From assembly GCA_000002435.2 (NCBI GenBank), contig AACB03000013.1: DNA of 8,231 bases. One strand, 5' to 3'. The stretch comes from Giardia intestinalis (lineage: Eukaryota). Position numbers and translations under genes: made by a program. Position 1 is the stretch's first letter, and every line of letters begins with the position of its first letter. Below are positions 1 to 8,231 of this stretch, in pieces. Below the pieces are notes generated by a model, which was not told where the DNA came from, did not search any database, and saw only the letters and a program-made list of their open reading frames with translations.

Positions 1-1361
1 GGGAAGTGCCTTCCTTGCAACACGATAGATCAAGCATGTACCCAGTGTGAGGTTGATTCGACTACCAAAAGCCGAAGTGCACAGCTTGTGATAACAGTAA
101 GATCCCAGGACGGCCCTTGATGGGACCTCGACGTGCGTGACAAAAGACTACGCTGGATGTAAAGGCGCTGACGAGGCCCTATTTATGAAGGAGGACAAAA
201 CATGTGTTTTATGCAGTACCGTTTCAGCTGGAGCCGATCCAAATTACCAGGGCATTGCGGGTAAGAAGTGTACCAAGGACTCGGCGACACCGCCGACCTG
301 CTCGGAGTGCCTCGATGGATACTACAGTAGTGGTAGTGGTACGGTTACATGCACCGCTTGTCCAGGTGCTAACTGTGCCACCTGCACTCAAACTGGCAAT
401 GATAAGTGTGATACATGCAAGCCTGGGTTCTTCATGAAAGGCAATGGTCCTACTGGTGAGTGCGTTGCTTGTGATAATGCACAGGGGGGCATCGATGGGT
501 GTGCCGAGTGCACAAAGGAGTCTACAGGACCTCTCAAGTGCACAAAGTGCAAGCCTAACAGGAAGCCCGCTGGAACCTCAGACAACTATACATGCACAGA
601 GAAGACCTGCGAGGACCCCACGGCTTGTGGGGGGACAGCTGGCTTTGTGATGCCATCGTATAGATGATCAGGGCACCACAAAGCACTACTGTTCCTATTG
701 TGGAGATAGTTCACAAGCTCCTATAGATGGTCTCTGTGCTAGTGAGGCTCAAAAGGCTGGGAATACTTGTGCTAATGGTGTATGTACACAGTGCACCAAC
801 AACTACTTCCTATACATGGGTGGCTGTTATAGCACTCAGAAGGCTCCTGGTAGCTTCATGTGCAAGACAGCAGGTAATACTGGGATCTGCACAGAAGCAG
901 CCAACAATAGGTACTTCGTAGTGCCTGGTGCATCCAACACTGATCAGTCTGTGTTGGCTTGTAGTAACCCCCTTGGCACACTGACAGGCACTGGTAATAC
1001 TGCTAAGGCATATGTGGGGGTAGAGGGCTGCTCCCAGTGTACAGCCCCAGCAGCTCTAACAACAGCTGGCATGACTGCTGCTGTGTGTACCTCCTGTGAC
1101 AATAGTAAGGTGCCCAACAAGGATGGCACTGGGTGTGTGACATGCTCTGACACCAACTGCAAGAGCTGTGTGATGGATAATATATGTGGGGAGTGTGTTG
1201 ATGGATACAGTCTAGAGGGTGGTAAGTGTGTGTCCTCTGGCGCCAACAGGGGCGGGCTCTCCACGGGGGCCATCGCGGGGATCTCCGTCGCTGTGGTCGT
1301 CGTCGTGGGGGGTCTCATAGGGTTCCTCTGCTGGTGGTTCATCTGCAGGGGGAAGGCGTGA
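1..1361 (+). CDS. vsp: VSP-family cysteine-rich surface protein, unit A. 5' end lies outside the window. The reading frame as given is interrupted by at least 3 single-base deletions, so it may be a pseudogene or carry sequence errors.
   Basis: Open segments: frame 1 at 1-~69, frame 3 at ~69-~105, frame 2 at ~104-667 and frame 3 at 651-1361. Together they give a protein collinear with unit B/E (…CTQCEVDSTTK / KPKC… / LDGTSTCV…TCEDPTACGGTAG / AIVIDDQGTTKHYCSYCGD…YFLYMGGCY…). It ends [34 protein letters not shown] at 1359-1361. Shifts are at ~70 (accaaaagccg vs paralogue accaagaagccg), ~104-107 (ccc vs cccc) and ~660 (gta-tagat vs gtaatagat). Confidence 0.8.
1266..1358 (+). other. C-terminal hydrophobic membrane-anchor segment plus CRGKA cytoplasmic tail of unit A
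   Basis: Translation [31 protein letters not shown] immediately precedes TGA at 1359-1361. This is the VSP-type transmembrane segment with a 5-residue tail. Confidence 0.8.
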
Positions 1362-1368
1362 CTTAGGT

Positions 1369-1375
1369 AGTGAAT
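1369..1375 (+). promoter_or_regulatory. Polyadenylation signal AGTGAAT (Giardia AGTRAAY class) for unit A
   Basis: Exact heptamer 8 nt after the TGA stop. The same stop-cttagGT-AGTGAAT arrangement recurs after every unit. Confidence 0.7.
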
Positions 1376-1382
1376 GCTGTAC

Positions 1383-1438
1383 AATGTGTGATAATGGGTA
1401 ATAGAGGGTGATAGTGTGATAGTGGAGTGTGATATGTA
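1383..1438 (+). repeat. Short form of the inter-unit spacer repeat: about 3 copies of a 10-bp GTGATARTGG-like unit in a C-free tract
   Basis: gtgtgataatgggtaatagagggtgatagtgtgatagtggagtgtgatatgta contains no C between 1383 and 1438. It is about half the length of the tract in the other three spacers. Confidence 0.75.
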
Positions 1439-3182
1439 CAAAGGCCAGTAATGGACTGTGCACTGCTTGTAAGACAGATAACAAGTACATATTCCAGAAC
1501 AGGGCAGACAAGGTGACTCCTGGTGGGGAGTGCATCTTGTGCTCTGATATCAAGGGAGCGAATGGATATACGGGAGTGGCCAACTGTCTCAAGTGTACGG
1601 CACCAGGGAATGCAGGACCTGCCACGTGTACAGAGTGTCAAGCAGGGTACTATAAAGATGGTAACGGTGCATGTGTCAAATGTCATACCGACTGCGAGAC
1701 GTGTAGTGGAACCGGTCAGAATGCATGCACCCTCTGCGTAGCGGGGAAGTACCTGAAGGGGACTGATTGTGTCGTAGCTGGCTCATGCACAGGCACACAC
1801 TATACTGACGAAGCTACCAGAACGTGCAAGGAATGTAGTACGATAGATCCCAGCTGTACCCAGTGTGAAGTTGATTCGACTACCAAGAAGCCGAAGTGCA
1901 GTAAGTGTGGCGATGATGGAACCAAGATCCCCAGGACGACCCTTGATGGAACCTCGACCTGCGTGGCGAAGAACTACGCCGGGTGTCAAGGAGCTGATAA
2001 CGGTCTCTTTATGACCGAGGACAACGTGTGTCGTTTGTGCAGTGATCCCGCAGCGTCGGATTCAGAACAAAAGAACAAAGGCATTGCTGGCTGTAAGGCT
2101 TGCACGAAGACAGCGAGTGCCAATCCAGCCTGCACAGAATGCCTGGAGGGATACATCGAGAACAGAAGCGGGGGCTTTACATGCGATCCGTGCGCTCCAG
2201 GCTGTGCGACATGCTCCAAGAAGGAAGATCCGAGTAAGTGCCTGACATGTAAGCAGGGTACTTCTTGAAGGATAGCTCCTCTGGTGAGTGCATCTCATGT
2301 AGTGACACAACCAAAGGTGGCATCGAGGGGTGTGCCGAGTGCACAAATAGTGGCACATTTAAGTGCACAAAATGCAAGGTGAACTACAGACCCAGTGGAG
2401 AACCTTCAACTGGGGTCACATGTACAAAGGCCTGTGAAGATGATACTGCGTGTGGTGGGACAGCAGGGGCCTGCGATGCTATAGTGATCGACAATGATGG
2501 AGTAGAGCATCATTACTGTTCCTATTGTGGGGATAGCAGTAAGTATCCTATAGATGGTCTCTGTGCTAGTGAGGCTCAAAGTAATACTTGTAACAACCAT
2601 GTCTGTGAGTCTTGTACTACAGGGTACTTTATGTATATGAATGGTTGTTACAAGGTTAATACAGAACCAGGTAGCCTCATGTGCAAGACATCAAGTAAGG
2701 AGGGTGTCTGTACAGAAGCAGCCAACAATAGATACTTCCTGGTTCCGGGGGCAACCAATGCTCAGCAGTCCGTGTTGGCATGTAGTAACCCCCTAGGCAC
2801 ATCAACAGGCACTGATAGTGCTGCTAAGGCATATGTGGGAATAGATGGCTGTTCAGCATGTACAGCCCCAGCAGGTCTGTCTGATGGTGGTATGACCCCC
2901 GCTGTGTGCACCTCCTGTGACAGTGATAAAAAGCCCAACAAGGATGGCAGTGGGTGTGTAGTATGCTCTGACACCAACTGCAAGAGCTGTGTGGTGGACG
3001 GTGTGTGTGGGGAGTGCAACAGTGGCTTCAGTCTAGACAATGGTAAGTGTGTGTCCTCTGGCGCCAACAGGAGCGGGCTCTCCGCGGGGGCCATCGCGGG
3101 GATCTCCGTGGCTGTGGTCGCTGTCGTGGGGGGCCTCGTGGGCTTCCTCTGCTGGTGGTTCGTGTGTAGAGGGAAGGCGTGA
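1423..3182 (+). CDS. vsp: VSP-family cysteine-rich surface protein, unit B (~585 codons). It has no in-frame ATG and one single-base frameshift at ~2254-2258.
   Basis: Frame 1 is open from the codon after TAG 1420-1422 (WSVICTKASNGLCTACK…) to 2268, and frame 3 from 2265 to 3182. The junction CLTCKQG/YFLKDSSSGECISCSD matches unit D (caaggg vs caggg). It ends …[47 protein letters not shown] at 3180-3182. It also has a GGCY motif (YFMYMNGCY) and dense CXXC. Confidence 0.85.
3087..3179 (+). other. C-terminal transmembrane anchor plus CRGKA tail of unit B
   Basis: [31 protein letters not shown], then TGA at 3180-3182. Confidence 0.85.
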
Positions 3183-3189
3183 CTTAGGT

Positions 3190-6942: not shown

Positions 6943-6949
6943 CTTAGGT

Positions 6950-6956
6950 AGTGAAT
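6950..6956 (+). promoter_or_regulatory. Polyadenylation signal AGTGAAT for unit E
   Basis: Heptamer 8 nt after the stop. Confidence 0.7.
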
Positions 6957-6958
6957 GC

Positions 6959-7045
6959 TATGAGTGATGATAATGGGTGATAATGTGTGATAGAGGTGAT
7001 AATGGGTGATAGTGTGTGATAGTATGATAGTGGAGTGAGATATGT
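6959..7045 (+). repeat. Inter-unit spacer: 87-nt C-free 10-bp-periodic repeat tract, a copy of 3199-3287 with two homopolymer G deletions
   Basis: gatagagg-tgataatggg and ctgagg-aggag each have GG where the other spacers have GGG. There is no C from 6959 to 7045. Confidence 0.85.
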
Positions 7046-7056
7046 ACAAAGGCTGA

Positions 7057-8231
7057 GGAGGAGTGTGCACTACTTGTAAGGCAGATAACGGCCTGTTCAA
7101 GAACCCTGCTGCAACACCAGAGAAGGGTAGTGAGTGCATCCTCTGTCATGATATCAAGGGAGCAGATGGATATACGGGGGTGGCTAACTGCGCACAGTGT
7201 CAGGCACCACAGAGTGCAGGACCTGTCACATGTACTGCCTGTCAAGATGGGTTCGTTAAGAAGGACAGTGCATGTGTGAAGTGCGGAGAGGGCTGCTCTG
7301 CCTGCTCAGCTGATACTCCGACTCAGTGTACCGCCTGCGTTGAGGGGAAGTTCCTGAAGGCTGACAAGTGTGTGGATGCTAATCAATGTGACAATGGTAA
7401 GTATGCAGACCCAAAACAGGCCAATGCAAGGCCTGCACGGACACAAGTGTCAATGAATGTGCTACGTGTGCATACAGCGACACTCTTCAGAAGCCTGTGT
7501 GCACTGGGTGTAATAGTGGAGGAAACCTGCTTCTTAAGGTGAACCCCGATGGGTCAGCGACGTGTGTTGCGGAGGCAGAGTGCACAAGTGGCAATACGCA
7601 CTTCCTTGAACAATCTCCAAAAGCTTGTGTTCCATGTGGTGATACTAAAAATGGTGGGATTCTAGGTGTGATACCTGCTCCTCTAAAACTACATGTACAA
7701 AGTGCCTCGATGGATATTACAATGTGCAAGTGGTAATACCGCTACATGCACAGCCTGTGGTGAGAACTGTGCCACCTGTGCTAAGGATACAAAAGACCAA
7801 TGCACGACCTGCAAGCAAGGGTACTTCTTGAAGGATAGCTCCTCTGGTGAGTGCATCTCATGTAGTGATACAGCAAATGGTGGCCGCGATGGGTGCAGTG
7901 CATGCTCTAACAGTGGTGGATTCAAATGTACTGACTGTAAGCCTAACTATAAGAAACAGCTTAATGGAGATGCAGGGGATGACTATACGTGTACAAAGAC
8001 CTGTGAAGATGAGACTGCATGCGGGGGGACAGCAGGGGCCTGCGAGCCATCGTGGTCGGCAACGACGGCAGCATGCTCTCTTACTGTTCAAAGTGTGTTG
8101 GCGCCGGCTATGGCCCCATTAATGGAAGTGCACCAATGCACTTGCAGGTAATACCTGCGCCGATGGTGTATGTACGCGGTGCACCAACAACTACTTCCTC
8201 TATATGGGTGGCTGTTATAAAGCAACAGAGG
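7057..8231 (+). CDS. vsp: VSP-family unit F, 3'-partial. It is a near-identical copy of unit D region 3299-4475, with at least 5 additional single-base deletions, so as given it is a pseudogene or an error-containing copy.
   Basis: There are no substitutions against D over ~1.17 kb, only indels: aaaa vs aaaaa (~7414-7417), gt vs gtt (~7667), aatgtg vs aatagtg (~7721-7726), gcgagcc vs gcgacgcc (~8044-8047), and cccc/gg vs ccc/ggg (~8114-8125). The reading frame hops between ORFs 7063-7542, 7497-7736, 7693-8151 and on to the window end. Confidence 0.8.

What the first reader, a model, noticed from the sequence alone, without database searches (positions are those of the whole stretch)
1..8231. 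Same-strand tandem array of at least five VSP-type surface-antigen units with a ~1.8-kb period
Five consecutive units (A, B, D, E, F) share one orientation and one architecture. Each has a CXXC-rich ectodomain and a GGCY motif, then …[12 protein letters not shown]…, then a TM segment, then [15 protein letters not shown] and a spacer. Neighbouring units are diverged paralogues at roughly 50-60% aa identity by eye. The exception is D/F, which are near-identical. CRGKA plus an AGTRAAY polyA signal is diagnostic for Giardia-type VSPs from established knowledge. Nothing else lies between the units, so this is a dense antigen-gene cluster, not a housekeeping locus.
Basis: partly seen in the sequence, partly recalled or inferred. 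Interest (0 to 1): 0.6.

Follow-up and report, generated by a model that had tools for sequence, protein, structure and literature searches.

The report
Giardia start-less VSP pseudogene array
The window is the inside of a head-to-tail array of Giardia intestinalis variant-surface-protein copies that all lack a start codon and signal peptide, an arrangement already described in Giardia genomes as a "linear array" of pseudo-VSPs.

Summary
Four CRGKA-TGA stops lie 1821, 1816 and 1944 nt apart. Each is followed by the exact VSP-specific extended polyadenylation signal ACTTAGGTAGTGAATGC (4 exact matches; none of 200 shuffles reached 4). All units hit Pfam VSP (PF03302). Unit B is 99% identical to G. 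intestinalis "VSP S6" and unit A is 97% identical to WB XP_001705183.1.

- Every unit opens straight after a stop-rich 61-89 nt spacer at "WSEICTK…".
- None has an in-frame ATG, an Inr (PyAATGTT) or a signal peptide.
- Related full-length VSPs carry about 100 more N-terminal residues.

The units also carry 1-nt frameshifts. These look like assembly errors: copies D and F differ by 8 one-base indels and 0 substitutions.

After correction the units are open reading frames of 575-618 aa, with dN/dS about 0.3 and 69 of 71 cysteine columns conserved. Similarity between units is mosaic, and the roughly 330-nt junction blocks are homogenised.

This matches the published VSP "linear arrays" / pseudo-VSP arrays (Adam 2010; Xu 2020). 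Those authors hypothesise that they are silent cassettes for recombination. The finding is already known and of low interest.

The parts
1..1361 (+). Unit A (5' end cut by the window): VSP body, GGCY, TM segment, CRGKA, TGA
   Evidence: Pfam VSP E=7e-23 on residues from 816-1358. 97% identical to WB XP_001705183.1 over 186 aa. It carries 1-nt deletions near 68, 104, 640 and 660.
1362..1422 (+). Spacer A|B (61 nt): extended polyA signal (its first base is the last base of TGA, 1361-1377), then degenerate GTGATA-type repeats
   Evidence: Stops in all three frames, and every ATG ends within 5 codons.
1423..3182 (+). Unit B: complete start-less VSP unit, 586 aa after restoring one G near 2258
   Evidence: 99-100% identical to 'VSP S6' Q8I8W3, which reads through the frameshift. 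First in-frame Met is at residue 197.
3183..3271 (+). Spacer B|D (89 nt): extended polyA signal plus the 10-nt tandem repeat TGATAATGGG x5.5 (3208-3262)
3272..4998 (+). Unit D: complete start-less VSP unit, 575 aa after restoring one C near 4359
   Evidence: Copy F carries the missing C. First in-frame Met is at residue 350.
4999..5087 (+). Spacer D|E (89 nt), identical to spacer B|D
5088..6942 (+). Unit E: complete start-less VSP unit, 618 aa after two 1-nt corrections (about 6443 and 6631). It has an extra 34-aa CXXC module inside a G+C-rich patch (about 6490-6830).
6943..7030 (+). Spacer E|F (88 nt): the same as B|D minus one G
7031..8231 (+). Unit F (3' end cut by the window): a second copy of D
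   Evidence: 0 substitutions and 8 one-base indels against D.
2982..3313 (+). Homogenised junction block: last ~200 nt of coding sequence, the spacer, and the first ~40 nt of the next unit. It recurs at 4798-5129.
   Evidence: 4 substitutions in 332 nt, while unit interiors are 40-60% identical.
6811..8231 (+). Second copy of 3051-4477 (3' block of B or E, spacer, unit D or F). The repeat distance is about 3.76 kb.
   Evidence: No substitution from 3051/6811 to the window end.

Best explanation
The window is an interior stretch of a Giardia intestinalis VSP 'linear array', probably from an assemblage A, WB-like isolate. It consists of head-to-tail copies of a VSP gene body.

What each unit keeps and lacks:
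- Each copy keeps the CXXC ectodomain, GGCY motif, transmembrane segment, CRGKA tail, stop codon and VSP-specific extended polyadenylation signal.
- Each copy lacks the 5' end of a real VSP gene: the Inr/start codon, the signal peptide and the roughly 100-residue N-terminal module that ends in the first GGCY.
- So the units cannot by themselves make a surface protein. They are pseudo-VSPs.

Most likely role (inferred, and already proposed in the literature): they are silent coding cassettes. Segmental gene conversion or recombination moves pieces between cassettes and into expression-competent VSP genes. The highly similar unit head and 3' junction block would serve as homology.

The 1-nt frameshifts in the sequence as given are most likely assembly errors, not decay.
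For: Shown here:
- Pfam VSP hits on every unit.
- Named homologues are essentially all Giardia VSP-family proteins. The best are 99% (VSP S6) and 97% (WB XP_001705183.1).
- Four CRGKA-TGA stops with the exact extended polyA signal.
- No PyAATGTT Inr anywhere. No in-frame ATG at any unit head. All spacer ATGs stop within 8 codons.
- The N-terminal 25 residues are hydrophilic, and the first in-frame Met is at residue 78-350.
- Full-length relatives P0126 and P0124 carry a signal peptide plus an N-module ending 'FLFMGGCY..PGSEICT'. The units begin exactly at 'SEICT'.
- An independent Illumina contig (L001) shows a head VSP with TAATGTT and a signal peptide, followed by the same TGA-AGTGAAT-GTGATA spacer and a start-less unit.
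- After indel correction there are 0 in-frame stops, against 12-58 in the other frames.
- dN/dS is 0.29-0.39 at dS of about 0.9-1.2, and 69 of 71 Cys columns are conserved.
- Similarity is mosaic, with significant runs of shared polymorphic sites in different places for different pairs.
- Identity along the units is U-shaped, and the junction block is homogenised.

From the literature:
- More than half of WB vsp genes lie in linear arrays. Downstream members lack the Inr and are hypothesised to be unexpressed recombination cassettes (PMC2996952).
- Pseudo-VSP arrays are untranscribed in G. muris, with evidence of gene conversion (PMC7641422).
- The extended polyA signal is specific to VSPs and pVSPs (10.1101/2022.03.07.483299).
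Against: - Nothing in the window shows that the cassettes are silent or that they donate sequence to expressed genes.
- The low dN/dS could be inherited from functional ancestors rather than maintained in the array.
- The mosaic signal could partly reflect local rate variation.
- The head gene of the array, if there is one, lies outside the window.
- The frameshifts could be real in this isolate. Only independent copies or records contradict them, not reads.
- A database record (VSP S6) annotates part of unit B as a protein from an internal Met. I could not find out whether it was ever seen as a transcript or protein.
Confidence: 0.85

Rival explanations
1. A cluster of complete, individually expressible VSP antigen genes, which is the natural reading of 'dense antigen-gene cluster'.
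For: All C-terminal and 3' VSP hallmarks are present in every unit. Selection-like signatures are present. UniProt lists a 390-aa 'VSP S6' inside unit B.
Against: No Inr, no in-frame ATG at the unit head and no signal peptide. The S6 model starts at an internal Met with no hydrophobic leader. All 136 complete WB VSPs have a signal peptide and 135 have the Inr (preprint).
Confidence: 0.04
2. Dead, decaying remnants with no role. Adam et al. offer this alternative as 'remains of discarded vsp genes'.
For: The units are start-less and are frameshifted as sequenced. The literature offers this as an alternative.
Against: There are no in-frame stops over about 1.7 kb in each of three full units at about 58% amino-acid identity. 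dN/dS is about 0.3 and cysteines are conserved. Every frameshift is a single base, mostly in a homopolymer. Those that could be checked are contradicted by the sister copy or by an independent record.
Confidence: 0.1
3. The D/F duplication, and perhaps the array length, is an assembly artefact of a long-read assembler working through near-identical repeats.
For: The indel-only differences between D and F show a noisy consensus. Arrays are known to break or collapse assemblies (PMC2996952).
Against: The units A, B, D and E are clearly distinct paralogues in one orientation. Near-identical neighbours within arrays are documented, for example vsp61/64 at 94%. This rival affects copy number only, not what the element is.
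Confidence: 0.15

Closest known systems
G. intestinalis WB vsp 'linear arrays' (Adam et al. 2010, BMC Genomics 11:424; PMC2996952)
   Same: - Head-to-tail VSP units.
- Short intergenic regions. The published average is 60 bp and the maximum 241 bp; here they are 61-89 nt.
- Downstream members lack the Inr, and the first ATG is variably placed.
- Near-identical neighbours and mosaic relationships.
- Units A and B are 97-99% identical to G. intestinalis records.
   Different: Nothing essential differs. The window does not include the first member of the array. The 10-nt repeat make-up of the spacer and the exact 5' truncation point (just after the first GGCY module) were not mentioned in the parts of that paper I read.
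Pseudo-VSP (psiVSP / pVSP) class of the chromosome-scale WB and G. muris annotations (Xu et al. 2020, PMC7641422; preprint 10.1101/2022.03.07.483299)
   Same: VSP homologues without a signal peptide, arranged in arrays. They carry the extended polyA signal ACUUAGRUAGURAAYRY. Some have the coding sequence 'split across three frames'.
   Different: - The G. muris arrays are telomere-adjacent and end in GCRGK. Here the tail is CRGKA, and position on the chromosome is unknown.
- The preprint attributes frame splits to evolutionary indels. Here the D/F and S6 comparisons point to assembly error.
Silent cassette archives of other antigenic-variation systems (T. brucei VSG arrays, Pneumocystis MSG)
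   Same: Arrays of promoter-less, often incomplete antigen gene copies flanked by conserved blocks. They are proposed as donors for gene conversion. Xu et al. draw the same analogy.
   Different: The proteins are unrelated. Giardia switching is thought to be epigenetic or RNAi-based rather than driven by recombination. No donor event has been shown for these units.

Membership tests
Giardia VSP protein family (Pfam PF03302) | Profile match above the gathering score | tested here: met
   Scores are 34.7-102.8 bits against a cut-off of 31.4 for five of six unit pieces. The sixth, the N-half of B, scores 23.3 bits.
Complete (expressible) G. intestinalis VSP gene | CXXC-rich ectodomain with a GGCY motif | tested here: met
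   26-27 CXXC motifs and about 12% Cys per full unit. GGCY is present in A, D, E and F; B has NGCY.
Complete (expressible) G. intestinalis VSP gene | Conserved C-terminal transmembrane segment followed by a CRGKA tail | tested here: met
   The hydrophobic 19-mer [11 protein letters not shown].GFL has a mean Kyte-Doolittle value of about 2.5. CRGKA-TGA occurs four times.
Complete (expressible) G. intestinalis VSP gene | Extended polyadenylation signal ACUUAGRUAGURAAYRY within a few nt of the stop | tested here: met
   Four exact matches that overlap the last base of TGA. None of 200 shuffles reaches 4 matches. The motif is taken from the preprint.
Complete (expressible) G. intestinalis VSP gene | ATG start embedded in the Inr PyAATGTT | tested here: not met
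   There is no [CT]AATGTT, and not even AATGTT, on either strand. No in-frame ATG at the head of B, D, E or F.
Complete (expressible) G. intestinalis VSP gene | N-terminal signal peptide | tested here: not met
   Units open at WS(E/V)ICTKA… with a mean hydropathy of -0.04 to -0.31. Relatives with a signal peptide have about 100 extra N-terminal residues. No dedicated signal-peptide predictor was available.
VSP linear array / pseudo-VSP array | At least 3 head-to-tail VSP units with short intergenic regions | tested here: met
   Five units on one strand, with spacers of 61-89 nt.
VSP linear array / pseudo-VSP array | Downstream members lack the Inr and signal peptide | tested here: met
VSP linear array / pseudo-VSP array | First member has an upstream non-coding region and an Inr | not testable with these tools
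   The window starts inside unit A. An analogous head gene is seen in the independent contig L001.
VSP linear array / pseudo-VSP array | Units are transcriptionally silent | not testable with these tools
   No expression data are available. Silence is reported only for G. muris psiVSPs.
G. muris telomeric psiVSP arrays | C-terminal GCRGK tail | tested here: not met
   All four tails are CRGKA. The G. muris motif is taken from PMC7641422.

The most novel reading that the evidence does not exclude
The homogenised ~330-nt junction would be a dedicated recombination module. It comprises the TM/CRGKA coding end, the extended polyA signal, the spacer built from 10-nt TGATAATGGG repeats, and the conserved 'SEICT…' head. 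It would work like the 70-bp repeat and 3' homology that flank trypanosome VSG cassettes. Whole start-less cassettes would then be copied behind the signal-peptide/first-GGCY module of an expression-competent VSP. Giardia antigenic diversity would then be generated partly by templated gene conversion, not only by epigenetic switching.
Probability: 0.12. Interest if true: 0.6.

Novelty: already known. Interest (0 to 1): 0.15.

Why it matters
VSP arrays make up a large share of the Giardia antigen repertoire, and their role is still unsettled: recombination reservoir or junk. This window adds no new kind of element.

It does give a clean worked example with two practical lessons.
- 'Frameshifted' pseudo-VSPs in long-read assemblies can be consensus errors rather than decay. 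That bears on how pseudogenes are counted and classified.
- The units are truncated at a precise point, just after the first GGCY module, and are bracketed by homogenised junctions. That is the geometry expected of exchangeable cassettes.

Tried and rejected
- **Exact-sequence look-ups.** Two window ORFs (4264-4995 and 816-1358) were looked up in public assemblies. Neither is on record, so the source assembly could not be named.
- **Origin of 'VSP S6'.** The literature search returned only false text matches such as 'vsps61' and 'VSPs6,8'. Whether S6 was ever detected as a transcript or protein is unknown.
- **Non-coding RNA.** Rfam and tRNA scans found nothing.
- **Antisense ORFs.** Long antisense ORFs of up to 241 aa span the 3' block and spacer. 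They have no Pfam match and are treated as by-products of a stop-poor antisense frame.
- **Assemblage B contigs.** L003 and L004 (GCA_000498735.1) were fetched as possible independent arrays. Their VSP genes are in mixed orientation, not head-to-tail, so I did not use them.
- **A shared frameshift in unit A.** I first thought the frameshift near 640-660 was shared with WB XP_001705183.1, which would make it real. Close reading shows that model leaves the VSP frame through a different indel in a G-run. No frameshift is therefore independently corroborated.
- **Alternative genetic code.** A Hexamitinae-type code, where only TGA is a stop, does not rescue the units. The spacers carry TGA in all three frames.
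- **Read-through polyprotein.** Rejected for the same reason.
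Full report
**1. The observation**

- CRGKA followed by TGA occurs four times, at 1344-1361, 3165-3182, 4981-4998 and 6925-6942.
- AGTGAAT follows each stop after a 7-nt gap. AGTRAAY occurs nowhere else on either strand.
- The full 17-nt motif ACTTAGRTAGTRAAYRY matches exactly four times. Shuffles give a mean of 0.03 matches, and none of 200 shuffles reaches 4.
- Repeat analysis gives spacings of 1821, 1816 and 1944 nt.
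- Units A (1-1361, cut at its 5' end), B (1423-3182), D (3272-4998), E (5088-6942) and F (7031-8231, cut at its 3' end) are all on the + strand.
- Spacers of 61, 89, 89 and 88 nt separate them.
- Nothing else is present: no tRNA and no Rfam family.

- B has NGCY, not GGCY.
- A has ANRGGLS.
- F ends before its TM segment.
- Amino-acid identity between neighbouring units is 58-65%.

**2. Family and organism**

- Every unit matches Pfam PF03302, the Giardia variant-specific surface protein family.
- A search of 5.8 billion proteins returned hits whose named entries are essentially all Giardia VSP-family proteins.
- The C-terminal 305 aa of unit B are 99% identical to 'Variant-specific surface protein S6' (Q8I8W3, G. 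intestinalis).
- Unit A is 97% identical over 186 aa to WB XP_001705183.1.
- The tail is CRGKA, as in G. intestinalis. G. muris VSPs end in GCRGK (PMC7641422).

The source is therefore G. intestinalis, probably an assemblage A (WB-like) isolate. I could not identify the exact assembly.

**3.

- Each spacer has stops in all three frames, and every ATG in it ends within 8 codons.
- The coding frame then opens without an ATG, at WSVICTKASNG… in B and WSEICTKAEGG… in D, E and F.
- The VSP initiator PyAATGTT is absent from the whole window on both strands.
- The first in-frame Met lies at residue 197 (B), 350 (D) and 78 (E). The opening 25 residues are hydrophilic.
- Full-length relatives recovered with the head of unit D (P0126, P0124) carry a signal peptide and a roughly 100-residue N-module ending …FLFMGGCY-x6-PGSEICT. 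The window units begin exactly at SEICT. They are VSP bodies truncated just after the first GGCY module.
- Other array members in databases are annotated from 'MGGCY' or from an ATG inside the spacer. An example is XP_001705183.1, which starts MLYSDSDSAMWCGGDSDSM…. GATAGT-type spacer repeats are therefore shared between arrays.
- An independent Illumina metagenome contig (L001) shows the expected start of such an array. A short VSP with TAATGTT and a signal peptide comes first. It is followed by TGA-ctcaggt-AGTGAAT, a GTGATAGAGGGTGATAGAAGG spacer, and then a start-less unit opening at (V)ICTAASDG.

**4. The frameshifts are probably sequencing or assembly errors**

As sequenced, each unit is split between frames.
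- D and F differ by 8 single-base indels and no substitution in 1296 columns. Six of the eight lie in runs of two or more identical bases. Each copy corrects the other.
- The S6 record reads straight through B's frameshift, a run of four G shortened to three at about 2258.
- XP_001705183.1 reads through A's first two frameshifts, a five-A run shortened to four and a four-C run shortened to three.
- Every frameshift is restored by adding one base, in most cases in a homopolymer.
- No frameshift is corroborated by an independent sequence.

This matters because a recent re-annotation attributes such three-frame splits in WB pVSPs to evolutionary indels (10.1101/2022.03.07.483299).

**5. State of the corrected units**

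- B, D and E become open frames of 586, 575 and 618 aa, with 26-27 CXXC motifs and about 12% Cys.
- They have 0 in-frame stops, against 12-58 stops in the other two frames.
- Pairwise dS is about 0.9-1.2 and dN/dS is 0.29-0.39. Of the 71 columns that hold a Cys, 69 are conserved in all three units.
- The units therefore carry the signature of protein-level constraint. I cannot tell whether that constraint acted inside the array or was inherited from functional ancestors.

**6. Mosaicism and homogenised junctions**

- Nucleotide identity along the units is U-shaped. It is 0.4-0.6 in the interior, up to 0.90 in the first 60 codons (D against E), and 0.97-1.00 in the last 40 codons.
- The block 2982-3313 comprises about 200 nt of 3' coding sequence, the 89-nt spacer and about 40 nt of the next unit's head. 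It recurs at 4798-5129 with only 4 substitutions.
- From 3051/6811 to the window end, the B-D junction and the E-F junction are identical apart from one-base indels. The segment '3' block + spacer + D' therefore occurs twice, about 3.76 kb apart.
- Inside the units, different pairs share significant runs of matching polymorphic sites in different places:
  - B-D at codon columns 289-302 and 574-604
  - B-E at 401-412
  - A-B at 392-403
  - A-D at 511-520
- The B-D, B-E and A-B runs were reached in 0 of 2000 permutations, and the A-D run in at most 1.
- This is the pattern expected from segmental exchange between units. Local rate variation could contribute to it.

**7. Mechanism**

Shown: the units cannot make a surface protein from their own position, because they have no start codon, no Inr and no signal peptide.

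Inferred, in line with published hypotheses: they are silent coding cassettes that exchange segments among themselves and with expression-competent VSPs. The conserved head and 3' junction would serve as homology.
- Adam et al. 2010 reported that more than half of WB vsp genes lie in linear arrays with intergenic regions averaging 60 bp. None of the downstream members has the Inr. They proposed that these members are unexpressed cassettes for recombination, or else discarded remnants (PMC2996952).
- Xu et al. 2020 defined psiVSPs as VSP homologues without a signal peptide. They counted 208 in G. intestinalis and 239 in G. muris. They found G. muris psiVSPs essentially untranscribed and inferred recombination or gene conversion (PMC7641422).
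- VSPs are also enriched among gene-conversion tracts between sub-assemblages AI and AII (PMC12669663).

**8. Comparison and verdict**

As VSP-family sequence the units pass every C-terminal and 3' test. They fail the two 5' tests that define a complete VSP gene, so they belong to the pseudo-VSP linear-array class, not to the class of expressible VSP genes.

This arrangement is already described. Interest is low. The only points beyond the papers I read are:
- the precise truncation point of the units;
- the 10-nt-repeat spacer;
- the warning that the frameshifts are likely assembly noise.

Noticed in passing
window 3183-4477 vs 6943-8231; also about 68, 104, 640, 660, 2258, 4359, 6443, 6631: All frame disruptions are single-base indels, nearly all deletions and mostly in homopolymers. 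The two copies D and F differ by 8 such indels and 0 substitutions. This pattern points to long-read consensus error. It suggests that some 'three-frame' pseudo-VSPs in published annotations may be artefacts.
   Followed up: yes
window 3208-3262, 5024-5078, 6968-7021 (weaker at 1383-1424); L001 2800-2835: The inter-unit spacer is built from about 5.5 copies of a 10-nt repeat, TGATAATGGG, so TGA recurs in all frames. Similar GTGATAG/GATAGT repeats follow the polyA signal in an independent Giardia contig. They are also translated into the N-terminus of WB XP_001705183.1 (MLYSDSDS…GGDSDSM). Their function is unknown.
   Followed up: partly
window 6490-6830: Unit E contains a G+C-rich patch (0.61 against about 0.50 elsewhere) that includes an extra 34-aa CXXC module. 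The module resembles the membrane-proximal part of the head VSP in L001 (…GCF.C.VSGCSHC…). The patch looks imported from a different VSP lineage.
   Followed up: partly
window 2762-3487 (-), 6630-7139 (-), 944-1441 (-), 5000-5290 (-): Long antisense ORFs of 96-241 aa run across each 3' block and spacer. They have no Pfam match and are probably a by-product of a stop-poor antisense frame. They could still matter if antisense VSP transcripts are made.
   Followed up: partly
L001 1868-2783 and 2830-3744: An independent Giardia contig carries a short full-length VSP with an Inr (TAATGTT) and a signal peptide. In it the N-module's GGCY is joined directly to the post-GGCY C-terminal module, as if the whole body had been deleted by recombination between the two GGCY regions. 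A start-less unit follows; it is truncated at its 3' end and sits next to a DNA primase gene.
   Followed up: partly
window about 262-266: Unit A lacks one Cys codon relative to WB XP_001705183.1 (QGIAG-KKCTK against QGIAGCKKCTK). This is an in-frame 3-nt difference, unlike the 1-nt indels. It may be a real difference between copies or isolates.
   Followed up: no
whole window: GC skew is positive in every 500-nt window, and the cumulative skew rises steadily. This reflects a strong G-over-C bias of the VSP coding strand.
   Followed up: no
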